From the NCBI GenBank assembly GCA_964016885.1, contig OZ024747.1:45942001-46006000 (forward strand): a DNA stretch of 64,000 bases. The letters run 5' to 3'. This DNA is from Eledone cirrhosa. Lineage: Eukaryota. The translations under genes and the position numbers were made by a program. The notes beneath the pieces were generated by a model. The model worked only from the letters and a program-made list of their open reading frames with translations, was not told the origin of the DNA and did not search any database. Positions 2,263-63,720 of this stretch are shown here, in pieces (position 1 is the first letter of the stretch; each line of letters begins with the position of its first letter).

Positions 2263-3176
2263 GAAGTAAGGCGGTTAAACCAGAGTTCTAAATAGCTTGC
2301 CAAGTCATGCTGACAGGAAATGGTAATGAGTATCTGTTCTATCTCTAATGTCAAAGAGTTAAGGTTAGGTGGATAAAGAGTAGTCTCCCTTTAAAAGGGT
2401 TTTTTTTTGTACATGCCTGTTTAAGTGTGTGGGAGAATGCATGAAGGTGTAAGTATGTGAGTGTGTGTGTGTGTGCGTGCGTATGTGTGTGCGTGTATGT
2501 GGGGGGTTGTAAATATGGGGCTAGAAGCTCTATCAAGTTATAAATTGGGTGTTGAGTTCTAGTCTATTATTGATTGATGGTTGTGTTTTGTCTATAATTA
2601 GTGCTTCCTTAATTCTAAGATTGCCGAGGTTTCTTTCCTTAGTTTCTATCCTAACTGTTATGGTTTTGTCGGTGTTTTTGCATTTGACTAGGTGTTTCTT
2701 AAATGGGGAAGCGTTAGTATTGAGGTGTTCTTTTATTCTTATGTGGAGTGGTCTGGTGGTGCTACCTACGTAGAAGTTGCTGCATTTGTCACACTCTAGT
2801 CTGTATACGACGTAAGCCTGGTGGCATAGGTCTGTGTCGTTGATGGGGCAGTTGGCTAGCCTGCAGCAGTTGTCATGTCTGGTGTAGTGTCTTTTGGTTA
2901 GCTGTCCGCGTAGAGAAGGACCTGAGTGGGCCAGTTGGATATCTAGTCCCTCTCGTCTGATAGCTCTGCGGATAGCTGTTGTTGTTTCGTCACTGAAGTG
3001 TGGGAGCTTCAGGAAGGATGTGTTAGTACCTCGGGTGTGGTGTCCTCTGTTTTTTCTGGCACGGTTTGTGGTGGATGTCGTGTATCCGTTCAGTTTGAGT
3101 ACTTCCAGGAAATGTGTGGTGTGTGTGTCTCGGTCTCTAGCGTCGGTGCATTTGTTCCGGATATGTGTAGTTCGTT

Positions 3177-3180
<4 letters not shown>
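2228..3180 (-). mobile_element. 5'-truncated Penelope-like retroelement (GIY-YIG endonuclease region plus 3' UTR)
   Basis: Minus translation ...CRLANCPINDTDLCHQAYVVYRLECDKCSNFYVGSTTRPLHIRIKEH...NLRIKEALIIDKTQPSINNRLEL: VVY...YVG, R..EH, E and N motifs of the PLE GIY-YIG. Flanked by (TA)n at the 5' end. Confidence 0.85.
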
Positions 3181-3217
<37 letters not shown>

Positions 3218-3508
3218 AACTTTTATATATGGGGTTGCATGTGTGCGTATGTGTGTGTGCGTGTGTGCGTGTGTGTGGATGTGTGTGGAGATCCTGAGTG
3301 AGATCGGGGGTAATCACAGAAAATGAGGTACTCAATACATAAGTAGAGTGAGAACAACAACATTTAATATAGAAAAGGTTTTACGGGACTAGGACTGTTT
3401 CGTTCTTATGAATGTTTATATATGTTTTCATATACACCACACACACATACACACTGTCTCTATCTCTCTCCCTCCTCTCCCTCTCTCTCTCTATATATAT
3501 ATATGTGT

Positions 3509-4684: not shown

Positions 4685-5935
<1,251 letters not shown>

Positions 5936-6008
5936 ATATGTATATGTATATATATATGTGTGTGTGTGTAAATAAATAAATATACATACGTATATATATA
6001 TATATGTG

Positions 6009-9527: not shown

Positions 9528-9607
9528 ATCTCTACCATGGTTTCGTTCGTATTTTGAGATATCCTATTATTAAGGATGAATTTAGAGTAACGAACTTATC
9601 AGGAGAC
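9528..9607 (-). ncRNA. Type I hammerhead ribozyme (G8A copy)
   Basis: GTCTC-CTGATAA-GTTCGT...ACGAAC-GAAAC-CATG-GTA-GAGAT, with palindromic ACCATGGT. Confidence 0.7.
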
Positions 9608-14918: not shown

Positions 14919-15259
14919 AGGTGGTATTCAACTAAAAATATATAAATATTTCTTGTAGCGAATTATCCCGAACTCCTAATGAAAGCAATAGGAAATATAT
15001 AAAATAAGCTAGAGACATAAGTCTGGACAAATTCGGCATTATATGTGGCATGTTCAGTTATATAAGGGTATAGAAGAATGAATAGGTCAATCATGGTTCA
15101 ATGTAATGTCTACATTTTTCTTTAAATTATAAAGAGATGTATACAAGATACATGAAAGCACATATATAAAAGAAACAACCACATATACGCAGCCTTAGAT
15201 ATACACATAAGAATATCCTATCTGTATGGCATGAATGTATGCATACTAATATATATGTT

Positions 15260-15316
<57 letters not shown>

Positions 15317-15385
15317 TATGAAGAGAGAAGAAACATTTAGATATAATTAGTAATAAAATGTATCATACCTAAACTGCTTCTAAAT

Positions 15386-15475
15386 TCCTCGACTACGTAG
15401 TTTCGTGGCATAAACAAAAACAATATATCATAAAGATATAGAGTCCTTGCGAGGTCTGCCGACTTATCAAGAGGA
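15386..15475 (-). ncRNA. Type I hammerhead ribozyme, U3-A8 variant
   Basis: TCCTC-TTGATAA-GTCGGCA...TGCCAC-GAAAC-TACGTA-GTC-GAGGA. Confidence 0.8.
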
Positions 15476-15963
15476 TACCTCATTTAACTAGTCTCAAGAA
15501 CGCGTCTACACGACGCGAGAAAGAATCCCAGAAGGCGGAGGGGGAGATAGTCACGCGATATAACGGTCGAGAAACAGAGCTAAGCCTCTTATAACCCCGA
15601 AGAAAATACCACGGAGGCGGAGGGGGTACTTATATCGTGGCCGTAGAAGAGGTGGTGAAGGAGACGAGAAGTATGAGTAATGGAAGCTTTCCAGCTGTCC
15701 CCACACTTCAAAGATTGCTCGACCAGAGGGAGTTATTAACAATATATTTAGAAACACACAGATACATGCGGACACACACATATATACATGAAGTGAGTTA
15801 AGGGTGCCAACTTCACCGATGTTGCTCAATGAATGACTGGGACAGACCAATTCAGTTGAACCAGACTGAACCAGTATCAGAGTTAAAAATACATTATGAA
15901 GAGAGAAGAAACATTTAGATATAATTAGTAATAAAATGTATCATACCTAAACTGCTTCTAAAT

Positions 15964-16053
15964 TCCTCGACTACGTAGTTTCGTGGCATAAACAAAAACA
16001 ATATATCATAAAGATATAGAGTCCTTGCGAGGTCTGCCGACTTATCAAGAGGA
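15964..16053 (-). ncRNA. Type I hammerhead ribozyme, U3-A8 variant
   Basis: Same motif in the second tandem unit. Confidence 0.8.
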
Positions 16054-16582
16054 TACCTCATTTTACTAGTCTCAATAACGCGTCTACACGACGTGAGAAA
16101 GAATCCCAAAAGGCGGAGGGGGAGATAGTCACGCGATATAACGGTCGAGAAACAGAGCTACGCCTCTTATAACCCCGAAGAAAATACCACGGAGGCGGAG
16201 GGGGTAATTCATTGAGCAACATCGGTGAAGTTGGCACCCTTAACTCACAGTTGGGTGCGGATGCATTCATGTGTATATGTGTGTGTCCGCATGTATCTGT
16301 GTGTTTCTAAATATATTGTTAATAACTCCCTCTGGTCGAGCAATCTTTGAAGTGTGGGGACAGCTGGAAAGCTTCCATTACTCATACTTCTCGGCTCCTT
16401 CACCACCTCTTCTACGGCCTCGATATAAGTACCCCCTCCGCCTCCGTGGTATTTTCTTCGGGGTTAAAAGAGGCTTAGCTCTGTTTCTCGACCGTTATAT
16501 CGCGTGACTATCTCCCCCTCCGCCTTTTGGGATTCTTTCTCACGTCGTGTAGACGCGTTCTTGAGACTAGTAAAATGAGGTA

Positions 16583-16672
16583 TCCTCTTGATAAGTCGGC
16601 AGACCTCGCAAGGACTCTATATCTTTATGATATATTGTTTTTGTTTATGCCACGAAACTACGTAGTCGAGGA
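16583..16672 (+). ncRNA. Type I hammerhead ribozyme, U3-A8 variant
   Basis: Stem I TCCTC/GAGGA, palindromic ACTACGTAGT stem-loop III, GUC cleavage triplet at 16665-16667. Confidence 0.8.
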
Positions 16673-17056
16673 ATTTAGAAGCAGTTTAGGTATGATACAT
16701 TTTATTACTAATTATATCTAAATGTTTCTTCTCTCTTCATAATGTATTTTAACTCTGATACTGGTTCAGTCTGGTTCAACTGAATTGGTCTGTCCCAGTC
16801 ATTCATTGAGCAACATCGGTGAAGTTGGCACCCTTAACTCACAGTTGGGTGCGGATGCATTCATGTATATATGTGTGTGTCCGCATGTATCTGTGTGTTT
16901 CTAAATATATTGTTATATATATATATATATATATATTTTTATAAGTTGAAAAAAATGAAAACGAAATTTCATTTCTCACTCTTAGTATGGCACTTACTTA
17001 AATGTAAGTATGTATGTACACGTACATACATATATGTATACAGACGTACAGTAGCA

Positions 17057-17123
<67 letters not shown>

Positions 17124-17279
17124 GCATACAGGTACACATACATATATGCACGCATCAGTTTAGCGGACGCTTATTATAACGCCGCTTTGTTCGTTTGTAA
17201 ACAAACTGAACAGCCTGAATTTATGCCATACGGTGTTAAGGCAACCACGTCACCTTTTTGTTCAACACTGACACAGGAA

Positions 17280-17320
17280 CGATGTACTAGTTTCAAGCTT
17301 GTTAGCTATCATCAGCACCG
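17280..17320 (-). ncRNA. Minimal type I hammerhead ribozyme
   Basis: CGGTG-CTGATGA-TAGC taacaa GCTT-GAAAC-TA-GTA-CATCG. Confidence 0.8.
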
Positions 17321-17468
17321 TTTACCCATCTGCCAGTTTTCAACTTATCGTTTTCGGTATGCCTGACCGATTTAACTCACTCAATATGCAAATTAGGCTG
17401 CTCATCCGTTAATTTTCATAAGGAAAGTATATACTTTCGAATGTTCAACTATCTGGCAGATGGGTAAA

Positions 17469-17509
17469 CGGTGCTGATGATAGCTAACAAGCTTGAAACT
17501 AGTACATCG
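17469..17509 (+). ncRNA. Minimal type I hammerhead ribozyme
   Basis: CGGTG-CTGATGA-TAGC taacaa GCTT-GAAAC-TA-GTA-CATCG, with palindrome ACTAGT. Confidence 0.8.
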
Positions 17510-17666
17510 TTCCTGTGTCAGTGTTGAACAAAAAGGTGACGTGGTTGCCTTAACACCGTATGGCATAAATTCAGGCTGTTCAGTTTGTTTACAAACGAAC
17601 AAAGCGGCGTTATAATAAGCGTCCGCTAAACTGATGCGTGCATATATGTATGTGTACCTGTATGCG

Positions 17667-17742
<76 letters not shown>

Positions 17743-17780
17743 TGCTACTGTACGTCTGTATACATATATGTATGTACGTG

Positions 17781-17818
<38 letters not shown>

Positions 17819-19455: not shown

Positions 19456-19569
19456 AATAAAAAGAGTAAAAAGAGGGAATCAAAGATTTAGGAATCAAAA
19501 GATTTATCGGCTAGTTCTCATATAAATATAAATCAAACTAAATATACTACATTTTAAATTTAAATTTAT

Positions 19570-20522
19570 ATTTAAACGTTGAGTTTAATCTATGTTTGCA
19601 ACAACTGAATAAATTTGTCCGTAGGTTAAGGGAATTTTTAGATTTTAGTATAAAGAATATCTCCTCTGCGCAGAGGTCACATGTCTCAGAGGATGAATTA
19701 AAAGGAATCCCTCTTGAGACTATATTCCAAGCCGTCGAATATCTAACGTTATCTAGCTTAAGTTGCCAGAGTACACCTGATAGTGCCGTTGAAGATTTTT
19801 TATTTGGATCTGTGAAAGAATTCTTGTGGTTATTATAGCGAAGTTTAAATTCCGTCGATGTGGAACCGACGTAGTTAAAAGAATTAGAGTCAGTATTTTA
19901 CATTACAATTGTATACTATATTTTTAAGTAAGCAGTTGTTATTTAACGGACATTTAGATCTATCTCTACAGTTACATTTGTTAACTTGTATATTATTTAT
20001 GCTATTATCAGTAGGTTTTAAGTTCCTATTATTTATTCTATTAATATTTTGTGCTAAATTTTTGGTGGATGAGTAGGTTAATTTAATTGTATGCCTATTG
20101 AAGATTGAGTGGTACCTATGTGTTCTAGGGAAGCGATTATCAAGAGCTTTGAAAAATAATTTAGCGATGTGGGTTTTAATGTTTAGTGAGAAAGGGGGGG
20201 CAAACCAAATTATGTTCCTAGTTCTATTTCTTTTTTGTCCTTTGGAATTATTGTAATGCTTTCTATTATAGTTGTTAATGTTGTTGCCATAATTAAAAAA
20301 GTTGTTACTTTGTTTAGTTTGTTTATCATTATCTATGTACACAATCTTATCAGCATACCCTGCCCTAGCTAGTGCATCATTATAGTATTGGGCCTTTTCG
20401 TCAAAAATCTTTCTATTCGACGAGATCCTAGAGATACGTTTTTGGACTGAGTTTACTATAGTGTTTTTGACAGATCTGGGGTGGTTAGAGTTAAAGTTGA
20501 CATAGTTTAAGTTTTCATTCAA
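19570..20522 (-). pseudogene. Penelope RT C-terminal/linker plus GIY-YIG endonuclease remnant
   Basis: YVNFNSNHPRSVK...RNIIWFAPPFS...IFNRHTIKLTYS...CNCRDRSKCPLNNNCLLKNIVY, stop, then YVGSTSTEFKLRYNNHK...CDLCAEEIFFIL...LNLRTNLFSCCKH. Confidence 0.9.
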
Positions 20523-20619
20523 TATTGTAAATATACTCCAAGTATTTGTCGAGTGCTTTTATATCAGTTATAAATATTTACTAGTTGTAACCCAACAATT
20601 TTAAATATAACTTTACATG

Positions 20620-23631: not shown

Positions 23632-24394
23632 ATATATATATATATATATATATATCCCAAAACAAATGGCATATATATAAACATATCAAGCATTAACAGG
23701 AAGTTATTCGCAATTTGCAAAGAATGTAAGAACATACAATTACAAAAATCAGTATATTTAAATCTAACAACAATATTCAATAATTATCAATACTATCTCA
23801 TACATATTCCAGTACGGCTTCAGAAATATGTTTCACCATTAAATGGTGAAGTTCAATTGTCAATCGTATATGGAGTTACTAAAAATCCACTGCGTCTTAG
23901 CATTATCTCTGTGGCGTGAATAGATAAGTTGATAGCTAGAAATAACAGCCAAAACCCTTTCAACACTACAAGGCTCAACTAAAATAATATTTAGCAGCAT
24001 ATCTATATTACTAAAAAGAATAAAGATATCGTGTCTGAGAAAATTTCAAGCACAGTTCGAGTGTATATGTGCGTACGCGCGTGTGTGTTTTCCTGTATCA
24101 GTCTATATATTTATATTTAACATTCTAAACGCATATATAGAGTCGGGTCCATTTACATCAAAATTGTGAAGTAGTGATTCGGTATATAGACATTCATGAA
24201 ATAATTACCATTGTGAAATATGTCTTTGGATTGATATGAGACCGAAATATATCTGAACACCATCATAGCCACAATCTAGTGACTGAGACAGAGTAAAGGA
24301 ATAATATACATTTTTGCCGCATTGGACAGTGAAAATGTTCTGGGTTTATTCTTCAAAAGGATAGTTTATTATACCTGATTCAATATTTCGCAAT

Positions 24395-25985
24395 AACCTA
24401 TAATCATTCTTTCAGAAGATCTGATAAAAAAATCTTCTACTTCTCTTTCACATCTTATATGGAACTTAAAAAGCAAGAATATAGACTATTCAATATCTTG
24501 GAAAACGATTTCAAGGCACATGCGTACCAAAATATCGCTTTATCAAAATTCTGTAAATTGTGTATCGAAGAAATTTTTTATAGAATTAACTGTCAAAACT
24601 CTATTAATCTCAGGACAGAATTATTTTCTTCTTGCAGACATCGCCAAAATTCTACATTCAGAACTATGTGTAATTTATAATATTCCTATAAATCTTCAAA
24701 ATTATCCTATCTTCTTTAACAATTTAAATTTTTAATATTTTTAATATTTTTAATATTTTTTAATATTTTTAATATTTTTAATATTTTAATATATTAATAT
24801 TTCTAAATGGTAATATCTTTAATATTTGTAGTACTTTCACCTTTCAGCAAACATTTGTTTTAATATTTATATATATATATTTATTTATATATATATATAT
24901 GTGTATAGATATTTATATATCTTTAATTCTTACATTATATTTTTCCAATGACACCATCTAAAGCTATTTTTAAACGTAGATTAATAACCATTAACTGACA
25001 TTAGAAAAATGTATCCTATTTTAAACATTCACACTTCTTTCGACTAAATAATTAATCAATCTCACACTAACTCTTAAAAAAATTATAGATTAACAAACAA
25101 AATTGAAGTTATCTTTACTTTCTCAATCATATACACTTATTACATTATGATATAAGTAACTCCGTTAAATTAAAACATTCTCGAAGCCGAACAAGATATT
25201 CAAATATATAAATTCATATGTTAACTACCTATTTATTTACATAAAATACAAAATCAACGTCCCTCGTAACTCATATTATAAACAACCACCTGAAACTTGA
25301 ACTACCTATTTATTTATTTATCTACATAAAACACAAAATCAACTCCCTCGTAACTCATATTATAAACAACTAATAATTGCAAATTATCTCTTTACAAAAA
25401 ATAAATATGCTATTATTAAATATATATATATTTATATATTTAACCCACTACAATATTGTAATAAGATAAATACTTATAAACATAATTCTCCATATAAATA
25501 TATACATAATATAGGTAAATATTCAAATTTTTCCCCCAAAATTAACGTATATAAGTGGTCTTCTTTTTCTTTTTTCCTTTTATTTTTTATTTTTCTTTTT
25601 CTTTCTTTATCTCCTACTAATATATCTAAACTTTCCATAGCGTTTAAAATAACGGTTTTTCAATCATATAACTCAACCTCATTTACATATTCATTTGCAT
25701 ACTCATCCTAACATTTTTGAAAAATCCGTTCTTTAAATTCAACTGATAAGGTATGTTTCCTTGGGTATGTCAACGTTTATAAAACACACTTTGTATTTTA
25801 TCTGATGAAAGCGAACCAAAGTGTTTTGGTACCCTTGAAATATATATAATAGAATAAATATGGTTTTATAAATATATTTTCCATTTATTTAATATCATTG
25901 AATATTTACTCCAGAAATGTATCGAGTGCTCTGAATCAGTTATAAACATTTATATTTATTGAATTTCCAACAAATTAAATATCCC
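24395..25985 (+). mobile_element. Penelope-like 3' fragment (endonuclease C-terminus, 3' UTR, HHR)
   Basis: HSFRRSDKKSSTSLSHLIWNLKSKNIDYSISWK / KAHAY...CKLCIEEIFYRIN...INLRTELFSSCRH. Same family as 17.8-20.6 kb. Confidence 0.85.
25794..25856 (+). ncRNA. Type I hammerhead ribozyme at Penelope 3' end
   Basis: TATTTTAT-CTGATGA-AAG...CCAAA gtgt TTTGG...CTT-GAAA-TATATA-TA-ATAGAATA, with an 8-bp stem I. Confidence 0.75.
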
Positions 25986-29580: not shown

Positions 29581-29857
29581 ATTCATGTTAAGTCTATGAA
29601 ACTTTATAACTATAATGTATATTATATATATTACGGTATAATATTATGATATTAGTATGTACAGGAACATACATATATGTATACAGACGTACAGTAGTAT
29701 GCATGTATATATACATATATGCACACATATATATATGTACGTATGGATTCACCGAACATTTATTATAATGCTCGGTGCGTTTGTAAACAAACATCCCGTA
29801 TTAAGCCGTAGTGTCTAGCAACCATCGTTGCTCGTTTGTTCAACACTGACAAAAGAA

Positions 29858-29898
29858 CGCTGTACTAGTTTCAAGCTTGTTAGCTATCGTCAGCAACG
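29858..29898 (-). ncRNA. Minimal type I hammerhead ribozyme
   Basis: CGTTG-CTGACGA-TAGC taacaa GCTT-GAAAC-TA-GTA-CAGCG. Confidence 0.8.
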
Positions 29899-30277
29899 TA
29901 TACCTTCCTGCCAGATTGTTGAACGTATATACTTACCTTATGCATATTAACGGCTGAGTAGCCCAATTTGCATATCGAGTGGGTTAATCGGCCGGGTGCA
30001 CCGAAAACGATAAACGGAAAAAATGAAACGAAATTTTATTTCCCACTCTTAGTACGGCTGTTACTTAAATATAAGTATGTACACGGACATACATATATGT
30101 ATACAGACGTACAGTAGTATGTATATATATATACATACATGCACACATATATATATGTACGTATGGATTCACTGAACATTTATTATAATGTTCGGTGTGT
30201 TTGTAAACAAACATCCCGTATTAAGCCGTAGTGTCTAGTAACCATCGTTGCTCGTTTTTTCAACATTGACAAAGGAA

Positions 30278-30318
30278 CGCTGTACTAGTTTCAAGCTTAT
30301 TAGCTATCGTCAGCAACG
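30278..30318 (-). ncRNA. Minimal type I hammerhead ribozyme
   Basis: Same motif, with loop II taataa. Confidence 0.8.
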
Positions 30319-30572
30319 TATACCTTCCTACCAGATTGTTGCTCGGTTGTTCAACACTGTACGTCTGTATACATATATGTATGTACGTGTACATACTTAT
30401 ATTTAAGTAACAGCCGTACTAAGAGTGTGAAATGAAATTTCGTTTCATTTTTTCCGTTTATCGTTTTCGGTGCACCCGGCCGATTAACCCACTCGATATG
30501 CAAATTGGGCTACTCAGCCGTTAATATGCATAAGGTAAGTATATACGGTCAACAATCTGGCAGGAAGGTATA

Positions 30573-30613
30573 CGTTGCTGACGATAGCTAATAAGCTTGA
30601 AACTAGTACAGCG
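30573..30613 (+). ncRNA. Minimal type I hammerhead ribozyme
   Basis: CGTTG-CTGACGA-TAGC taataa GCTT-GAAAC-TA-GTA-CAGCG. Confidence 0.8.
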
Positions 30614-30901
30614 TTCCTTTGTCAGTGTTGAACAAACGAGCAACGATGGTTGCTAGACACTACGGCTTAATACGGGATGTTTGTTTACAAACACACCGAG
30701 CATTATAATAAATGTTCGGTGAATCCATACGTAGATATATATATGTGTGCATGTATGTATATATATATATACATACTACTGTACGTCTGTATACATATAT
30801 GTATGTACGTGTACATACTTATATTTAAGTAACAGCCGTACTAAGAGTGGGAAATGAAATTTCGTTTCATTTTTTCCGATTATGATATTACTTATTTCTA
30901 A

Positions 30902-50725: not shown

Positions 50726-50763
50726 TACACATTTACAGATAAAACATAAACATATGCACATGG

Positions 50764-52505
50764 ACACATATAACTCAAAACATCCACATGTACACATATA
50801 ACTCAAAACATCCACATGCACACATATAACTAAAAACATCCACATGTACACATATAACTCAAAACATCCACATGCACACATATAACTCAAAACATCCACA
50901 TGTACACATATAACTCAAAACATCCACATGTACACATATAACTCAAAACATCCACATGTACACATATAACTCAAAACTTCCACATGTACACATATAACTC
51001 AAAACATCCACATGTACACATATAACTCAAAACATCCACATGTACACATATAACTCAAAACTTCCACATGTACACATATAACTCAAAACATCCACATGCA
51101 CACATATAACTCAGAACTTCCACATGCACACATATAACTCAAAACATCCACATGTACACATATAACTCAAAACATCCACATGTACACATATAACTCAAAA
51201 CATCCACATGTACACATATAACTCAAAACATCCACATGCACACATTTAACTCAAAACATCCACATGTACACATATAACTCAAAACATCCACATATGCACA
51301 TATAACTCAGAACTTCCACATGTACACATATAACTCAAAACATCCACATGCACACATATAACTCAAAACATCCACATGTACACATATAACTCAAAACATC
51401 CACATGCACACATATAACTCAAAATATCCACATGTACACATATAACTCAAAACATCCACATGTACACATATAACTCAAAACATCCACATGTACACATATA
51501 ACTCAAAACATCCACATGTACACATATAACTCAAAACATCCACATGCACACATATAACTCAGAACTTCCACATTCACACATATAACTCAAAACATCCACA
51601 TGTACACATATAACTCAAAACATCCACATGTACACATATAACTCAAAACATCCACATGCACACATATAACTCAAAACATCCACAAGCACACATATAACTC
51701 AAAACATCCACATGTACACATATAACTCTAAACTTCCACATGTACACATATAACTCAAAACATCCACATGCACACATATAACTCAAAACATCCACATGCA
51801 CACATATAACTCAAAACATCCACATGCACACATATAACTCAAAACATCCACATGCACACATATAACTCAAAACATCCACATGTACACATATAACTCAAAA
51901 CATCCACATGCACACATATAACTCAAAACATCCACATGCACACATATAACTCAAAACATCCACATGTACACATATAACTCAAAACATCCACATGCACACA
52001 TGTAACTCAAAACATCCACATGCACACATATAACTCAAAACATCCACATGTACACATATAACTCAAAACATCCACATGTACACATATAACTCAAAACATC
52101 CACATGTACACATATAATTCAAAACATCCACATGTACACATATAACTCAAAACATCCACATGCACACATATAACTCAAAACATCCACATGTACACATATA
52201 ACTCAAAACATCCACATGTACACATATAACTCAAAACATCCACATGTACACATATAACTCAAAACATCCACATGCACACATGTAACTCAAAACATCCACA
52301 TGTACACATATAACTCAAAACATCCACATGTACACATATAACTCAAAACATCCACATGTACATAAATAACTCAAAACATCCACATGTACACATATAACTC
52401 AAAACATCCACATGCACACATATAACTCAAAACATCTACATGTACACATATAACTCAAAACATCCACATGTACACATATAACTCAATACAACCACATGCA
52501 CACAT
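50764..52505. repeat. 28-bp minisatellite (~62 copies)
   Basis: ACACATATAACTCAAAACATCCACATGY. Confidence 0.95.
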
Positions 52506-53389
52506 ACAACAACATTCATAACTCCACACACTTGTACGCATGCAGATATGCAGACATATCTACCTAGTTGATGTTGTCTAAATTCCAATGAGAGAGTCTT
52601 GTGTCTATGTTAGAAACCGACTCTCTCTATTGGTAAAAATTCATAAAATCATAAAACCAGAAGAACATACATACATACATACATATATTTGTTCCAAAAC
52701 AATGTTGCATGGTTCTTGCTATTTTGTATGGTAAGACTAACGAGTCTTGACACTTAGCAAATTGAAAGAGCCAAGAGATGTACAAAATACGACATTCTTG
52801 GAATATTCTTAACAAAAGCCTGTTTACGTTTATCTTGTTCTTTCATATACATAATTTAGAACCAGCTTAATAGGGGAAGAAATAATATATTTAGTTCATC
52901 AATAATTAACAGAAAGAAACGTCTTCTATATCGGTAACATAGCAATCAACATAGCGATGAAAACAACATATAAACAAGAATACAACTACAGCAACGCTAA
53001 GCTTTATATTTACACAAGTTAACATTAGTAATAATTCAGAGTAAGAGTGAATGAGGATGGTCAATGTAAAGCTCAAAAGTATAAAAACAAAAAATATGGT
53101 AGTTGTGGTATTGGGTGTTGAATATAATTATCTCCCTTGATTAGAATTAGATTTGCTGCCAATCAAAAGTGTTTTGGTACAACCAATCTATATTGTATAT
53201 ATTTCTGTTTGCTTGATTGTTTAATGACAACATCTGGACGCAGGTAAAATCAGCGTCACACAATGAACTATACATTGGTACACACATGTGCCTGTGTGTG
53301 TGTGTGTACGCCTTTATGTATGTATCTATGTAGATATTATATAAATATGCATATTATATCTGTATATGTATAAGTACACACACACACAG

Positions 53390-55718: not shown

Positions 55719-58700
55719 TAGTGGTGGTGGTGTTGGTGGTGTTGGTGGTGGCGTTGGTGGTGTTGGTGGTGGTGTTGGTGGCGTTGGTGGTGTTGGTGGT
55801 GTTGGTGGCGTTGGTGGTGTTGGTGGTGTTGGTGGTGTTGGTGGTGTTGGTGGCGTTGGTGGTGTTGGTGGTGGCGTTGGTGTTGGTGGTGTTGGTGGTG
55901 TTGGGGGGTGTTGGTGGTGTTGGTGGTGTTGGTGGCGTTGGTGGTGTTGGGGGTGTTGGGGGGTGTTGGTGGTGTTGGTGGTGGCGTTGGTGGTGTTTGT
56001 GGTGTTGGTGGTGGTGTTGGTGGTGGTGTTGGTGGCGTTGGTGGTGTTGGTGGTGGTGGTGGCGTTGGTGTTGGTGGTGTTGGTGGTGTTGGGGGGTGTT
56101 GGTGGTGTTGGTGGTGTTGGTGGTGTTGGTGGTGTTGGTGGCGTTGGTGGTGTTGGTGGTGTTGGTGGTGTTGGTGGTGGCGTTGGTGTTGGTGGTGTTG
56201 GTGGTGTTGGGGGGTGTTGGTGGTGTTGGTGGTGTTGGTGGTGTTGGTGGTGTTGGTGGTGTTGGTGGTGTTGGAGGTGTTGGTGGTGTTGGTGGTGGTG
56301 GTGGCGTTGGTAGTTTTGGTGGTGATGGTGGTGTTGGTGGTGTTGGTGGTGTTGGTGGTGTTGGTGGTGTTGGGGGGTGTTGGTGGTGTTGGTGGTGGCG
56401 TTGGTGGTGTTTGTGGTGTTGGTGGTGGTGTTGGTGGTGGTGTTGGTGGCGTTGGTGGTGTTGGTGGTGTTGGTGGTGGCGTTGGTGTTGTTGGTGTTGG
56501 TGGTGTTGGTGGTGTTGGAGGTGTTGGTGGTGTTGGTGGTGTTGGTGGTGTTGGTGGTGGTGTTGGTGGCGTTGGTGGTGTTGGTGGTGTTGGTGGTGTT
56601 GGAGGTGTTGGTGGTGTTGGAGGTGGCGTTGGTGGTCTTGGTGGTGTTGGAGGTGGCGTTGGTGGTGTTGGTGGTGGCGTTGGTGGTGTTGGTGGTGGCG
56701 TTGGTGGTGTTGGTAGTGTTGGTGGTGATGGTGGTGTTGGTGGTGTTGGTGGTGTTGGTGGTGGCGTTGGTGGTGTTGGTGGTGTTGGTGGTGGCGTTGG
56801 TGGTGTTGGTGGTGTTGTTGGTGGTGTTGGTGGTGGTGTTGGTGGCGTTGGTGGTGTTGGTGGTGTTGGTGGCGTTGGTAGTTTTGGTGGTGATGGTGGT
56901 GTTGGTGGTGTTGGTGGTGTTGGTGGTGGCGTTGGTGGTGTTGGTGGTGGCGTTGGTGGTGTTGGTGGTGTTGTTGGTGGTGTTGGTGGTGGTGTTGGTG
57001 GCGTTGGTGGTGTTGGTGGTGTTGGTGGCGTTGGTAGTTTTGGTGGTGATGGTGGTGTTGGTGGTGGTGGTGGTGTTGGTGGTGTTGGTGGTGGCGTTGG
57101 TGGTGTTGGTGGTGTTGGTGGTGGCGTTGGTGGTGTTGGTGGTGTTGTTGGTGGTGTTGGTGGTGGTGTTGGTGGCGTTGGTGGTGTTGGTGGTGTTGGT
57201 GGCGTTGGTAGTTTTGGTGGTGATGGTGGTGTTGGTGGTGTTGGTGGTGTTGGTGGTGGCGTTGGTGGTGTTGGTGGTGGCGTTGGTGGTGTTGGTGGTG
57301 TTGTTGGTGGTGTTGGTGGTGGTGTTGGTGGCGTTGGTGGTGTTGGTGGTGTTGGTGGCGTTGGTAGTTTTGGTGGTGATGGTGGTGTTGGTGGTGGTGG
57401 TGGTGTTGGTGGTGTTGGTGGTGGCGTTGGTGGTGTTGGTGGTGTTGGTGGTGGCGTTGGTGGTGTTGGTGGTGTTGTTGGTGGTGTTGGTGGTGGTGTT
57501 GGTGGCGTTGGTAGTGTTGGTGGTGTTGGTGGTGGCGTTGGTGGTGTTGGTGGTGGTGTTGGTGGTGTTAGTGGTGGTGTTGGTGGCGTTGGTGGTGTTG
57601 GTGGTGTTGGTGGTGTTGGTGGTGGTTTTGGTGGCGTTGGTAGTTTTGGTGGTGATGGTGGTGTTGGTGGTGTTGGTGGTGTTGGTGGTGTTGGTGGTGT
57701 TGGTGATGTTGGTGGTGTTGGTGGTGTTGGTGGTGATGGTGGTGATGATGGTGTTGGTGGTGTTGGTGGTGTTGGTGGTGTTGGTGGTGTTGGTGGTGTT
57801 GGTGGTGATGGTGGTGTTGGTGGTGTTGGTGGTGTTGGTGGTGTTGGTGATGTTGGTGGTGTTGGTGGTGATGGTGGTGTTGGTGGTGTTGGTGGTGGCG
57901 TTGGTGGGGTTGGTGGTGTTGGTGGTGTTGGTGGTGGCGTTGGTGGCGTTGGTGGTGTTGGTGGTGTTGGTGGTGTTGGTGGTGTTGGTGGTGGCGTTGG
58001 TGGTGTTGGTGGTGTTGGTGGTGTTGGTGGCGATGTTGGTGATGATGGTGTTGGTGGTGTTGGTGGTGTTGGTGGTGTTGGTGGTGTTGGTGGTGGCGTT
58101 GGTGGTGGCGTTGGTGGTGTTGGTGGTGTTGGTGGTGTTGGTGGTGTTGGTGGCGATGTTGGTGATGATGGTGTTGGTGGTGTTGGTGGTGGTGTTGGTG
58201 GCGTTGGTGGCGTTGGTGGTGTTGGTGGTGTTGGTGGTGTTGGTGGTGATGGTGGTGATGATGGTGTTGGTGGTGTTGGTGGTGGTGTTGGTGGCGTTGG
58301 TGGCGTTTGGAAGTGTTGGTGGTGTTGGTGATGTTGGTGGTGTTGGTGGTGTTGGTGGTGTTGGTGGTGTTGGTGGTGATGGTGGTGATGATGGTGTTGG
58401 TGGTGTTGGTGGTGGTGTTGGTGGCGTTGGTGGCGTTGGTGGTGTTGGTGGTGTTGGTGGTGTTGGTGATGTTGGTGGTGTTGGTGGTGTTGGTGGTGTT
58501 GGTGGTGTTGGTGGTGATGATGGTGTTGGTGGTGTTGGTGGTGGTGTTGGTGGCGTTGGTGGCGTTGGTGGTGTTGGTGGTGTTGGTGGTGTTGGTGGTG
58601 TTGGTGGTGTTGGTGGTGTTGGTGGTGTTGGTGGTGTTGGTGGTGGTGTTGGTGGCGTTGGTGGCGTTGGTGGTGTTGGTGGTGTTGGTGGTGTTGGTGG

Positions 58701-60772
58701 TGATGGTGGTGATGATGGTGTTGGTGGTGTTGGTGGTGGTGTTGGTGGCGTTGGTGGCGTTGGTGGTGTTGGTGGTGTTGGTGGTGTTGGTGGTGTTGGT
58801 GGTGATGGTGGTGTTGGTGGTGTTGTTGGTGGTGTTGGTGGTGTTGGTGGTGATGGTGGTGATGATGGTGTTGGTGGTGTTGGTGGTGGTGTTGGTGGCG
58901 TTGGTGGCGTTGGTGGTGTTGGTGGTGTTGGTGGTGTTGGTGGTGTTGGTGGTGTTGGTGGTGTTGGTGGTGTTGGTGGTGATGGTGGTGATGATGGTGT
59001 TGGTGGTGTTGGTGGTGGTGTTGGTGATGTTGGTGGTGATGGTGGTGATGATGGTGTTGGTGGTGTTGGTGGTGTTGGTGGTGTTGGTGGTGTTGGTGGT
59101 GGTGGTGTTGGTGGTGGTGTTGGTGTTGGTGGTGTTGGTGGCGTTGGTGGTGTTGGTGGTGTTGGTGGTGTTGGTGGTGTTGGTAGTTTTGGTGGTGATG
59201 GTGGTGATTGTGGTGATGATGGTGTTGGTGGTGTTGGTGGTGTTGGTGGTGTTGGTGGTGTTGGTGGTGTTGGTGGTGATGGTGGTGTTGGTGGTGGTGT
59301 TGGGGGCGTTGGTGGTGTTAGTGGTGTTGGTGGCGTTGGTGGTGTTGGTGGTGTTGGTGGTGTTGGTGGTAGTGGTGGTGTTGGTGTTGTTGGTGGTAGT
59401 GGTGGTGTTGGTGGTAGTGTTGGTGGTGGTGCTGGTAGTGTTGGTGGTAGTGGTGGTGTTGGTGGTGTTGGTGGTGTTGGTAGTTTTGGTGGTGATGGTG
59501 GTGATGATGATGTTGGTGGTGTTGGTGGTTGTGTTGGTGGCGTTGGTGGTGTTTGTGGTGTTGGTGGTGTTGGTGGTGTTGTTGGTGGTGTTGGTGGCGT
59601 TGGTGGTGTTGGTGGTGTTGGTGGTGTTGGTAGTTTTGGTGGTGATGGTGGTGATGGTGGTGTTGGTGGTGTTATTGGTGTTGGTGGTGGTGAGGGTGGC
59701 GTTGGTGATGTTGTTGGTGGTGGTGGTGGTGGTGGTGGTGGTGGTGGTGGTGGTGGTGGTGGTGGTCGTGGTGGTGGTGGTGGTGTTGGTGGCGTTGGTG
59801 GTGTTGGTGGTGTTGGTAGTTTTGGTGGTGATGGTGGTGATGGTGGTGTTGGTGGTGTTGGTGGTGTTGGTGGTGATGATGGTGTTGGTGGTGTTGGTGG
59901 TGTTGGTGGTGTTGGTGGTGTTGGTGGTGTTGGTGGTGATGATGGTGTTGGTGGTGTTGGTGGTGTTGGTGGTGTTGGTGGTGTTGGTGGTGTTGGTGGT
60001 GTTGGTGGTGGCGTTGGTGGTGTTGATGGCGATGGCGGGATGATAGTTTTCATGGTGTAGTTGGTGTTGGTGGTTTTGGTGGTGTTGGTGGTGTTGGTGG
60101 TGTTGGTGGTGGTGGTGGTGGCGTTGGTGATGGTGGTGTTTGTGGTGTTGGTGGTGTTGGTGGTGTTGGTAGTGTTGGTGGTGTCGGTGGTGTTGGTGGT
60201 GTTGGCGGTGTTGGTGGTGTTGGTGGTGTTGCTGGTGATGGTGGTGTTTGTGGTGTTGGTGGTGTTGGTGGTGTTGGTGGTGGTGTTGGTGGCGTTGGTA
60301 GTTTTGGTGGTGATGGTGGTGTTGGTGGTGATGGTGGTGTTGGTGGTGTTGGTGGTGTTGGTGGTGTTGGTGGTGTTGGTGGTGATGGTGGTGTTGGTGG
60401 TGGTGTTGGGGGCGTTGGTAGTTTTGGTGGTGATGGTGGTGTTGGTGGTGATGGTGGTGTTGGTGGTGTTGGTGGTGTTGGTGGTGTTGGTGGTGTTGGT
60501 GGTGATGGTGGTGTTGGTGGTGGTGTTGGGGGCGTTGGTGGTGTTAGTGGTGTTGGTGGTGTTGGTGGTGTTGGTGGTAGTGGTGGTGTTGGTGGTAGTG
60601 TTGGTGGTGGTGGTGGTAGTGTTGGTGGTAGTGGTGGTGTTGGTGGTAGTGTTGGTGGTGGTGGTGTTGGTGGTGGTGGTGGTAGTGTTGGTGGTGGTGG
60701 TGGTGGCGGTGGTAATGTTGGTGGTGTCAGTGGTGTTGGTGGTGTTGGTGGTGGTGGTGTTGGTGGTGCTAG
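55719..60772. repeat. 5-kb (GGTGGTGTT)n compound satellite
   Basis: 9-bp unit built from GGT/GTT triplets, with GGC/GAT/AGT variants and local higher-order duplication. Confidence 0.95.
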
Positions 60773-60903
60773 TGATTTTCTGTTGTTAATGATGAGATTG
60801 ATAATTTTGATGGCAACAAGAGAGGCAATGACTAAGAAATTAAAATGATGCATATACATATAAACACACACACACGCACACACACACACATATGTATATA
60901 TAC

Positions 60904-61000
<97 letters not shown>

Positions 61001-61010
61001 CATATATACA

Positions 61011-61041
<31 letters not shown>

Positions 61042-61329
61042 GTGTATATATATACATATCTATATCTATATATACATTTATATATATATGTATGTATATA
61101 TATACATATATATACATATATATCTATATATGTATGTATATATATATACATATATATATATAGACTGAGTGCGTGAAATGTTTGAGAACATGGCTCCATC
61201 ATGTTAAGGGGTGGGGAAAGATGTTAAAAAGACAATTGAAATGATTGTTTGAAGCTATTTCTATTGATAAATATGTGATAGTGTTGTTGTTTTTGTTATA
61301 GTATTGATATTGTTGAAGGAGATGATAAT

Positions 61330-63720
61330 GATGGTAGTGTTGGTGTTGGTGGTGGTGGTGGTAGTGTTGGTGTTGGTGGTGGTGGTGGTGTTGGTGGTAG
61401 TGGTTGTGGTGGTGGTGTTGGTGGTGTTGGTGGTAGTGTTGGTGTTGGTGGTCGTGGTGGTAGTGGTGGTGTTGGTGGTAGTGTTGGTGGTGGTGGTGGT
61501 GTTGGTGGTATTGGTGGTAGTGTTGGTGGTGGTGGTGGTGGTGGTGTTGGTGGTGGTGGTGGTAGTGTTGGTGGTGTTGGTGGTAGTGTTGGTGTTGGTG
61601 GTCGTGGTGGTAGTGGTGGTGTTGGTGGTAGTGTTGGTGGTGGTGGTGGTGTTGGTGGTATTGGTGGTAGTGTTGGTGGTGGTGGTGGTGGTGGTGTTGG
61701 TGGTGGTGGTGGTAGTGTTGGTGGTGTTGGTGGTAGTGTTGGTGTTGGTGGTGGTGGTGGTAGTGGTGGTGTTGGTGGTAGTGTTGGTGGTGGTGGTGGT
61801 GTTAGTGGTGGTGGTGGTGGTAGTGTTGGTGGTGGTCGTGGTGGTGGTGGTGTTGGTGGTGGTGGTGGTGGTGGTGTTGGTGTTGGTGGTGTTGGTGGTG
61901 GTGGTGGTAGTGTTGGTGGTGGTCGTGGTGGTGGTGGTGGTGGTGGTGGTAGTGGTGTTGGTGGTGTTGGTGGTGGTGGTGGTAGTGTTGGTGGTGGTGG
62001 TGGTGTTGGTGGTGGTGGTGGTGGTAGTGTTGGTGGTGGTCGTGGTGTTGGTGGTGTTGGTGGTGGTGGTGGTGGTGGTGTTGGTGTTGGTGGTGGTGGT
62101 GGTGGTGGTGGTAGTGTTGGTGGTGGTCGTGGTGGTGGTGGTGGTGGTGGTGGTGGTAGTGGTGTTGGTGGTGGTGGTGGTGGTGGTGGTAGTGTTGGTG
62201 GTGGTCGTTGTGGTGGTGGTGTTGGTGGTGGTGGTGGTGGTGGTGGTGTTGGGGGTGTTGGTGGTGGTCGTGGTAGTGTTGGTGGTGGTCGTGGTGGTGG
62301 TGGTGGTGTTGGTGGTGGTGGTGGTAGTGTTGGTGGTGGTCGTGGTGGTGTTGGTGGTGGTGGTGGTGGTGGTGGTGGTGGTGGTGGTGTTGGTGTTGGT
62401 GGTGTTGGTGGTGGTGGTGGTAGTGTTGGTGGTGGTCGTGGTGGTGGTGGTGTTGTTGTTGGTGGTGGTGGTGTTGGTGGTGTTGGTGGTGGTGGTGGTG
62501 GTGGTGTTGGTGTTGGTGGTGTTGGTGGTGGTGGTGGTAGTGTTGGTGGTGGTCGTGGTGGTGGTGGTGGTGGTGGTGGTGGTAGTGGTGTTGGTGGTGT
62601 TGGTGGTGGTGGTGGTAGTGTTGGTGGTGGTCGTGGTGGTGGTGTTGGTGGTGGTGGTGGTGGTGGTGGTGTTGGGGGTGTTGGTGGGGGTGGTGGTAGT
62701 GTTGGTGGTGGTCGTGGTGGTGGTGGTGGTGTTGGTGGTGGTGGTGGTAGTGTTGGTGGTGGTCGTGGTGGTGTTGGTGGTGGTGGTGGTGGTGGTGGTG
62801 GTGGTGTTGGTGGTGGTGGTGTTGGTGGTGTTGGTGGTGGTGGTGGCAGTGTTGGTGGTGGTCGTGGTGGTGGTGGTGGTGTTGTTGTTGGTGGTGGTGG
62901 TGTTGGTGGTGTTGGTGGTGGTGGTGGTAGTGTTGGTGGTGATCGTGGTGGTGGTGGTGTTGGTGGTGGTGGTGGTGGTGGCGGTGTTGGTGGTGGTGGT
63001 GGTGGTGGTGGTGTTGGTGGTGTTGGTGGTGGTGGTGGTAGTGTTGGTGGTGGTGGTGTTGTGTTTTGATGGTGGTGGTGTTGGTAGTGTTGGTGTTGGT
63101 GGTGGTGGTGGTGGTGTTGGTAGTGTTAGTGTTGGTGGTGGTGTAGTATTGGTGTTGGCGGTGTTGTTTTGATGGTGGTGGTGTTGTGTTGATGGTGGTC
63201 GTGATGGTGTTGGTGGTGTTGTGTTGATGATGGTGGTGATGGTGTTGGTGGTGTTGTGTTGATGGTGGTGGTGATGGTGTTGGTGGTGTTGTGTTGATGG
63301 TGGTGGTGATGGTGGTGGTGGTGTTGTGTTGATGGTGGTGGTGATGGTTTTGTATTGATGGTGGTGGTGATTGTGTTGGTGGTGTTGTGTTGATGGTGGT
63401 TGTGATGGTGTTGGTCGTGTTGTGTTGATGGTGGTGGTGATGGTGTTGGTGGCGTTGTGTTGATTGTGGTGGTGATGGTGGTGGTGGTGTTGTGTTGATG
63501 GTGGTGGTGATTGTGTTGGTGGTGTTGTGTTGATGGTGGTGGTGATGGTGTTGGTGGTGTTGTGTTGATGGTGGTGGTAGTGTTGGTGAGGGGGGGGGGG
63601 GGTAGCGGCGGTAGGGTTGGTGATGGTGGTGGTGGCGGTGGTAGTGGCAGTGATGATGTTTGTCATAGTGTTGGCGATTGTAGAGTTGGTGTTGGTGGGT
63701 ATGGTGTTTGTGGTGATGGG
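61330..63720. repeat. 2.4-kb (GGT)n-rich compound satellite
   Basis: GGT runs broken by GTT/GTA/GTC. A ~35-bp subunit GTGTTGTGTTGATGGTGGT... at 63170-63580. Confidence 0.95.

What the first reader, a model, noticed from the sequence alone, without database searches (positions are those of the whole stretch)
15311..16913. 595-bp monomer carrying a hammerhead with a compensatory U3-A8 core
Seen: three copies of TCCTC-TTGATAA-stem II-GAAAC-TACGTA-GTC-GAGGA. Established: C3 and G8 form a Watson-Crick pair in the active HHR, and U3-A8 preserves it. A double change in otherwise perfect stems argues for selection on function, and CUGANGA searches would miss it. The element is ORF-less, tandem plus inverted, and sits in (TA)n.
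Basis: partly seen in the sequence, partly recalled or inferred. Interest (0 to 1): 0.8.

Follow-up and report, generated by a model that had tools for sequence, protein, structure and literature searches.

The report
Penelope-type retrozyme with U3-A8 hammerhead
This stretch is one copy of an abundant, protein-free repeat that carries a hammerhead self-cutting RNA motif with a U-A core pair already known from Penelope-like jumping genes; it is likely copied around the genome by such an element's enzyme, and whether the RNA really cuts itself is untested.

Summary
Observation confirmed; the novelty claim is not. Three identical type I hammerheads lie in one insertion made of two head-to-head arms (about 1.5 and 1.2 copies of a 595-bp unit) set in (TA)n. 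UUGAUAA is the family norm: 6,042 exact matches in the genome, 0 with CUGAUGA. The 45 core and basal-stem positions are unchanged between subfamilies about 17% apart, so this is not local decay. U3-A8 is already in print for natural hammerheads (2011) and Penelope-like elements (PLEs, 2014). It is also the majority core among this genome's minimal hammerheads (19,735 of 29,874). This scan found U3-A8 PLE hammerheads before on other DNA. Best reading: a non-autonomous PLE, that is, a non-LTR retrozyme. The more useful result is mechanistic. The family has two fixed 3' ends 164 nt apart. Two-armed insertions use one of each (70 of 71 typed). All units of an insertion look copied from one template (0.2-0.3% apart, against 2.2% between insertions). 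An autonomous PLE in the same genome follows the same rule. Cleavage, expression, circular RNA and the partner enzyme are not shown.

The parts
15311..16209 (-). Left arm, about 1.5 units (unit positions 224-595, then 1-544 with a 17-bp deletion). Ends at the family's 'B' 3' end, 80 nt after the predicted cut, against (TA)n.
16204..16915 (+). Right arm, about 1.2 units (positions 1-595, then 1-118). Ends at the family's 'A' 3' end (B plus a 164-nt tail, a few bases more in this copy) against (TA)n.
16204..16209 (.). Head-to-head junction; the two arms overlap by about 6 nt
16583..16672 (+). Type I hammerhead motif. Stem I TCCTC/GAGGA; core UUGAUAA 16588-16594 (U3, A8); stem II 16595-16653; GAAA; stem III palindrome 16657-16666; predicted cut after C16667 (GUC).
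15964..16053 (-). Identical hammerhead; predicted cut between 15969 and 15968
15386..15475 (-). Identical hammerhead; predicted cut between 15391 and 15390. In the predicted fold of the left-arm transcript its stem III palindrome pairs with that of the upstream copy (dimeric form). Double cleavage would release a 578-nt monomer.
16748..16915 (+). 'Tail': the stretch between the two alternative 3' ends, present at only one end of two-armed insertions
15249..15313 (.). (TA)n target tract, left. A target-site duplication cannot be read inside it.
16916..16936 (.). (TA)n target tract, right

Best explanation
The stretch is one insertion of a young, high-copy, non-coding repeat with a type I U3-A8 hammerhead motif in each 595-bp unit, most likely a non-autonomous Penelope-like element (non-LTR retrozyme) mobilised by the RT/GIY-YIG protein of an autonomous PLE. 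Shown by sequence: the motif; about 6,000 hammerhead copies; dispersal in (TA)n; two fixed 3' ends, B (cut+80) and A (cut+244); one of each in two-armed copies; near-identity of all units within one insertion. Inferred: (1) Read-through of a tandem arm gives an RNA in which two hammerheads pair through their palindromic stem III and cut after GUC. (2) The released monomer is ligated into a circle. (3) A PLE protein, probably as a dimer, nicks both strands of a (TA)n tract and primes reverse transcription at A on one strand and at B on the other, on the same RNA. (4) Each cDNA can run past one unit length. (5) The two cDNAs are joined head to head. The class assignment is about 0.88 likely. The circular template is about 0.5 likely, against an uncut multimeric transcript.
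For: Family norm U3-A8: 6,042 vs 0. Core and basal stems 45/45, B end 24/24 and A end 27/28 unchanged between old and young subfamilies, against 457/550 outside the hammerhead core and stems. Stem III works as a duplex, not a hairpin, and pairs between tandem copies in the predicted fold, as described for PLE hammerheads (PMC4209133). Two-armed copies: 70 A+B, 1 B+B, 0 A+A, with 9 untyped and 2 cut by locus edges, in 149 loci; 27 of 27 typed in the 56 position-ordered loci. Divergence within an arm is 0.31%, between arms 0.23%, between insertions 2.17%. 29 of 90 arms span two or more cut sites; the longest arm is 2.9 kb. An autonomous element in the same genome (L117) has a 938-aa frame with RT and GIY-YIG matches, a U3-A8 hammerhead, (TA)n targets, a pyrimidine-rich B end at cut+82 and an A end ending TTTCTAATATAT (ours: TTTCTAAATATAT). 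It shows 12 of 12 typed pairs A+B, 3 untyped. Tandem/inverted structure, a one-sided tail and TA bias are PLE hallmarks (PMC8557442, PMC3846280, PMC11167929).
Against: No autonomous partner with alignable sequence was found. The unit had no blastn match to the PLE body of any of 50 GIY-YIG loci; one locus holds a separate family insertion. No other family shares its stem III, and 14 tail-motif loci held family sequence and no PLE frame. 5' ends do not pile up at the predicted cut: 6 of 237 at positions 460-469, 4.0 expected, p=0.21. There is only a broad, post-hoc excess just downstream (18 vs 8.4 at 470-490). In the one PLE reconstituted in vitro, hammerhead cleavage was not needed for insertion and uncut RNA was the main template (PMC11167929). 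Eight of nine predicted Xenopus retrozyme dimers did not cleave in vitro (bioRxiv 2026.07.22.740005). PLE minimal hammerheads cleave poorly. The free MFE of a single copy mis-pairs the core. Single-template identity would also follow from an uncut multimeric transcript of one source locus. One B+B insertion exists (L196).
Confidence: 0.85

Rival explanations
1. Same class of element, but the hammerhead is a passenger. The template is an uncut multimeric transcript, and the motif is kept as a protein-binding or folding signal, or cuts only rarely.
For: No sharp 5' ends at the cut site. In the autonomous family, 19 of 35 arms begin 61-72 nt upstream of the cut, about 30 nt after a TATA box, so uncut transcripts are copied. 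HHR mutants insert normally in vitro (PMC11167929).
Against: This family has no comparably sharp 5' end, and its arms run through up to five units. Without a step that regenerates length, arrays would shrink with each round (inference). The catalytic positions, not just the stems, are unchanged between subfamilies.
Confidence: 0.4
2. The unit is only the pseudo-LTR plus tail of an autonomous PLE not yet found, and the copies are its truncated insertions.
For: The autonomous L117 family does leave many short pLTR-only insertions with the same two-armed form.
Against: Units follow each other directly, with no ORF between them. In 150 family loci the three PLE-protein matches were short pieces in three loci; they were read as neighbouring insertions and not traced further.
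Confidence: 0.08
3. A DNA-level repeat (satellite, MITE or Helitron-like) that happens to hold a hammerhead-like motif.
For: Tandem and inverted arrangement; insertion at TA.
Against: Fixed 3' ends with variable 5' truncation, no terminal inverted repeats, arrays of only 1-5 units dispersed over many contigs. Hammerhead positions are conserved beyond background.
Confidence: 0.04
4. Local decay of a canonical CUGAUGA hammerhead.
For: None found.
Against: 6,042 vs 0; U3-A8 also in the older subfamily.
Confidence: 0.01

Closest known systems
Metazoan non-LTR retrozymes (Cervera & de la Pena 2020, PMC7229834; Li, Clavereau & Pollet, bioRxiv 10.64898/2026.07.22.740005)
   Same: Non-coding tandem units, each with a type I hammerhead; GC under 45% (41.8%); thousands of copies; proposed mobilisation by PLEs through circular RNA.
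   Different: U3-A8 core; 59-nt stem II; 595-bp unit (above the roughly 300 bp of the 2020 paper, within the 51-972 bp of the 2026 preprint); mostly short two-armed insertions in (TA)n with two fixed 3' ends. Expression and cleavage not shown here.
Minimal hammerheads of PLE pseudo-LTRs, U3-A8 variant of Schistosoma Cercyon elements (PMC4209133)
   Same: U3-A8 core, short stem I, palindromic stem III suited to dimers, G10.1-C11.1 pair, bulged stem II as in the D. virilis variant.
   Different: Longer palindrome (10 nt) and very long stem II; sits in an ORF-less unit; high sequence uniformity.
EN+ Penelope-like elements, with tail and two RT start sites (PMC11167929, PMC8557442, PMC3846280)
   Same: Partial tandem plus inverted 5'-truncated arm; tail at one end only; AT-rich or (TA)n targets.
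   Different: No RT/GIY-YIG frame; tail of 164 nt rather than 30-40 nt. The one-of-each use of the two ends is near-absolute here, whereas in vitro no strand difference was seen for the Anolis element.
Natural U3-A8 hammerheads (Perreault et al. 2011, PMC3088659)
   Same: Same covariation, described as natural and previously shown active in vitro.
   Different: The context of those examples was not read; here the motif lies in a PLE-type repeat.

Membership tests
Type I hammerhead ribozyme | Core boxes (3)UGAN(8)A and GAAA, with positions 3 and 8 paired | tested here: met
   UUGAUAA and GAAA; U3-A8
Type I hammerhead ribozyme | Three helices, helix I open-ended, NUH triplet | tested here: met
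   5-bp stem I, bulged stem II, GUC. The constrained fold is -22.5 against -23.6 kcal/mol free.
Type I hammerhead ribozyme | Self-cleavage after NUH | not testable with these tools
   No assay. Genomic 5' ends show no sharp peak at the cut.
Type I hammerhead ribozyme | Match to an Rfam hammerhead model | tested here: not met
   No hammerhead family at E<=10 on 16540-16720; the long stem II and variant core probably explain it (inference).
PLE-type dimeric hammerhead | Short palindromic stem III that pairs between tandem copies | tested here: met
   Hairpin +1.5, duplex -12.9 kcal/mol; paired between copies in the left-arm fold
Non-LTR retrozyme | Tandem non-coding units, each with a type I hammerhead | tested here: met
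Non-LTR retrozyme | Expressed as monomeric linear and circular RNA | not testable with these tools
   No RNA run was offered
Non-LTR retrozyme | Sequence kinship with the pLTR of an autonomous PLE | tested here: inconclusive
   No alignable partner in 50 GIY-YIG loci. End architecture is shared with L117. Only 50 of 150 listed hits, out of 10,597 candidates, were fetched.
Penelope-like insertion structure | Fixed 3' ends, 5' truncation, partial tandem plus head-to-head inversion, tail at one end | tested here: met
   222 of 239 arms end at A or B; 70 of 71 typed two-armed copies are A+B
Autonomous PLE | ORF with RT and GIY-YIG | tested here: not met
   Longest stop-free frame 129 aa; no significant match to PLE frames

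The most novel reading that the evidence does not exclude
The family is a genomic record of how PLEs integrate. A dimeric PLE enzyme primes one strand of a (TA)n target at the tail's end and the other strand at the tail's start, on a single hammerhead-made RNA circle, and both cDNAs roll round it. This would turn the long-noted 'tail at one end' and tandem/inverted structure into a strict, testable rule, and would give the retrozyme hammerhead a defined job that the autonomous partner, copied from a linear transcript with a fixed start, does not need.
Probability: 0.35. Interest if true: 0.62.

Novelty: new member of a known kind. Interest (0 to 1): 0.33.

Why it matters
The U3-A8 core itself is known and matters little. 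What has value is a young family of thousands of copies, with a likely autonomous partner in the same genome. Its insertions obey a near-absolute one-A-end, one-B-end rule and derive from one template each. That offers a ready system to test two open points: whether retrozymes move through circular RNA using PLE enzymes, and what the PLE tail and hammerhead are for. It also shows that searches fixed on CUGANGA would miss about two thirds of the minimal-hammerhead motifs counted in this genome.

Tried and rejected
Rfam scans found no hammerhead: whole window (150 of 238 rows listed, all simple-repeat hairpin hits) and 16540-16720. Expression: no RNA holder listed. Contigs of four runs laid on the unit showed the same two end points and the tandem joint, but say nothing on RNA. 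Partner search: relaxed stem III patterns returned only family copies; blastn and tblastn against 50 GIY-YIG loci showed no shared sequence; 14 tail-motif loci held family sequence only. A Pfam accession recalled for a PLE domain is not in the library. Single-position variant counts cannot show selection within the young family, because position 7 is as invariant as 3 and 8. A sharp 5' end at the cut site was not found. One head-to-head join of this family with an L117-type tail (L049) was judged too weak to prove shared machinery. Three B+B calls were partly alignment breaks in diverged copies; with a trimer query one remained and is real. In the autonomous family, L208 has two A-ended pieces 3.3 kb apart with no family sequence shown between them; it was treated as two insertions and left out of the 12-of-12 count. 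A paper on exchanging the 3-8 pair, recalled from memory, is not held. Target-site duplications cannot be read inside (TA)n.

Full report
OBSERVATION. The window holds three identical 90-nt motifs TCCTC-TTGATAA-(59 nt)-GAAAC-TACGTA-GTC-GAGGA at 15386-15475 (-), 15964-16053 (-) and 16583-16672 (+). They belong to one insertion, 15311-16915, between (TA)n tracts. A minus-strand arm (15311-16209) and a plus-strand arm (16204-16915) meet head to head with about 6 nt of overlap. The family unit is 595 bp; the window's units are 594 and 578 bp because of a 1-bp and a 17-bp deletion. The longest stop-free frame is 129 aa, and the unit's frames give no significant match to PLE loci. Rfam does not detect the motif.

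THE RIBOZYME MOTIF. It is a type I hammerhead with a 5-bp stem I, U3 and A8, a bulged and extended stem II, and GUC at the cut. Forced into the hammerhead form, a single copy folds at -22.5 kcal/mol, against -23.6 for a free fold that mis-pairs the core. Stem III is the palindrome ACUACGUAGU: +1.5 kcal/mol as a hairpin, -12.9 as a duplex of two copies. In the predicted fold of the left-arm transcript the two palindromes pair with each other, and double cleavage would release 578 nt. This dimer-type design is what Cervera and de la Pena describe for animal PLE hammerheads (PMC4209133, parts 1-2 of 4 read).

IS U3-A8 THE NORM? Yes. The 20-mer with UUGAUAA has 6,042 exact matches in the 3.0-Gb genome (reversed control 0), and the CUGAUGA form has 0. 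Single variants are equally rare at positions 3, 7 and 8 (12, 9, 13), so invariance within this young family reflects common descent as much as selection. Better evidence comes from an older subfamily. Column by column, 45 of 45 core and basal-stem positions match the young unit, against 457 of 550 elsewhere (Fisher p=0.0005). The two end regions are also kept (24 of 24, 27 of 28) (84 aligned segments from 30 loci). For the genome's other, short-stem minimal hammerheads a degenerate pattern gave 29,874 matches (control 404). Of these 19,735 are U3-A8, 209 C3-A8 and 221 U3-G8, which leaves about 9,700 C3-G8 by subtraction. These are copy counts from a handful of families, not independent events. 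They show that positions 3 and 8 covary and that U3-A8 is ordinary here. No C3-G8 ancestor of this family was found, so the pair was probably inherited.

IN PRINT. Perreault et al. 2011 report natural U3-A8 covariation and earlier in vitro activity (PMC3088659, one passage seen). Cervera and de la Pena 2014 report about 1,300 U3-A8 motifs in Schistosoma PLEs. Tandem non-coding units with type I hammerheads are the non-LTR retrozymes (PMC7229834, passages and Discussion). A 2026 preprint links them to PLE pseudo-LTRs and found cleavage in only 1 of 9 dimers tested (bioRxiv 10.64898/2026.07.22.740005, parts 1-3 of 5). Six literature searches listed no paper that, by title and abstract start, describes this family. 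No supplements were read, and these may list related motifs. The host looks like an octopus-type cephalopod; that is recalled from a SINE-like repeat and was not tested. Earlier notes of this scan reached the same reading for U3-A8 motifs in other genomes; none matched this sequence.

INSERTION ANATOMY. I fetched the 56 loci that hold the first 100 motif matches on contig C1. Arms have variable 5' ends but two fixed 3' ends, both against (TA)n: B at unit position 544 (cut+80) and A at about 113-118 (cut+244). The 164 nt between them form a tail. In this sample 27 of 27 typed two-armed junctions join one A arm and one B arm (one is a local duplicate; 3 more are untyped), and single arms split 13 A, 13 B and 1 untyped. 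Over 149 loci, including similarity-selected and older copies, the count is 70 A+B, 1 B+B, 0 A+A, with 9 untyped and 2 cut by locus edges; the B+B case is real. Units within an arm differ by 0.31% and between arms of one insertion by 0.23%, against 2.17% between insertions (segments at least 94% identical, duplicate locus L044 dropped from the within-element counts). So each insertion appears copied from one template. 29 of 90 arms pass through two or more intact cut sites; the longest arm is 2,907 bp. At 1.8 motifs per locus the family has roughly 3,400 insertions (inference). Tandem/inverted structure, a tail at one end and TA bias are known PLE features (PMC8557442 and PMC3846280, passages). 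The tail lies between two RT start sites in the Anolis element (PMC11167929, parts 1-2 of 4).

PARTNER. The genome is rich in GIY-YIG frames (10,597 candidates, 150 scored), of which 50 were fetched. L117 has a 938-aa frame matching RT (below Pfam's cut-off) and GIY-YIG. It carries a DKG motif and a CxxxxCxxC linker of the type that PMC8557442 attributes to Neptune and Nematis. It has a UUGAAAA (U3-A8) hammerhead, inserts in (TA)n, and has a pyrimidine-rich B end at cut+82 and an A end at cut+150 ending TTTCTAATATAT. In 17 loci of that family, picked mostly as opposite-strand pairs, 12 of 12 typed pairs are A+B, with 3 untyped. 19 of 35 arms begin 61-72 nt before the cut, about 30 nt after a TATA box, which suggests a linear uncut transcript with a fixed start. 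This makes an L117-like enzyme a plausible partner, but no alignable sequence links it to our unit, and other searches found no partner.

MECHANISM AND LIMITS. Most likely: dimer-dependent cleavage of tandem transcripts, ligation to a monomer circle, and two-site target-primed reverse transcription by a PLE protein at (TA)n, with head-to-head joining of the two cDNAs. All of these steps are inferred. For a circle: multi-unit arms, single-template identity, and no sharp 5' end like that of the autonomous family. Against, or neutral: 5' ends are not enriched at the cut (6 of 237, 4.0 expected). There is a post-hoc excess at 470-490 (18 vs 8.4) and a broader one at 200-290 (67 vs 36), which sampling and TA microhomology may partly explain. 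An uncut multimer from one source locus would give the same identity pattern, and in vitro PLE insertion does not need cleavage.

VERDICT. A real, conserved feature and a new member of a known kind. The U3-A8 core is not new. The strict two-end, single-template pattern is the part worth following. Interest 0.33.

Noticed in passing
window 16940-17785: Directly beside the element lies a second two-armed hammerhead repeat of another family, with a canonical CUGAUGA core (17281-17319 minus, 17470-17508 plus) and an internal (TA)n. Its two arms also stop at different 3' ends.
   Followed up: partly
window 29660-30870: A related C3-G8 family (CUGACGA core) in tandem at 420-bp spacing plus an inverted arm; motifs at 29859-29897, 30279-30317 (minus) and 30574-30612 (plus).
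   Followed up: partly
window 5098-5942: 3' fragment of the autonomous L117-type PLE, with its UUGAAAA hammerhead at 5759-5796.
   Followed up: partly
window 9529-9606 (minus): Hammerhead-shaped motif with a long stem II and a mismatched C3-A8 core, probably a decayed copy of another family; a similar long-stem U3-A8 motif lies in L163.
   Followed up: no
G000, listing: One short-stem family (stem II beginning GATGAATTTT) appears mostly as U3-A8 but supplies many of the U3-G8 rows. It may record a switch between C3-G8 and U3-A8 through a wobble pair.
   Followed up: no
G000:C1:5738326-5752444 (L216): A C3-G8 retrozyme-like array of 31 listed tandem 466-bp units plus one inverted copy.
   Followed up: partly
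L049:3020-3160: Head-to-head join, with no TA between, of this family's arm to an L117-type tail fragment; 1 of 56 loci.
   Followed up: partly
L198-L214: 5' ends of short autonomous-PLE arms cluster about 30 nt downstream of a TATA box, marking a probable transcription start 72 nt before the hammerhead cut.
   Followed up: partly
window 55721-63576; 50728-52510; 704-1606: Long minisatellites: 9-bp unit (856 copies), 28-bp unit (64 copies) and 36-bp unit (25 copies).
   Followed up: no
window 19550-20558 (minus), 24333-24732, 2536-3222 (minus): Frames that by eye resemble decayed PLE RT/GIY-YIG pieces; they gave no tblastn hit with the L117 protein at E<=1e-3.
   Followed up: no
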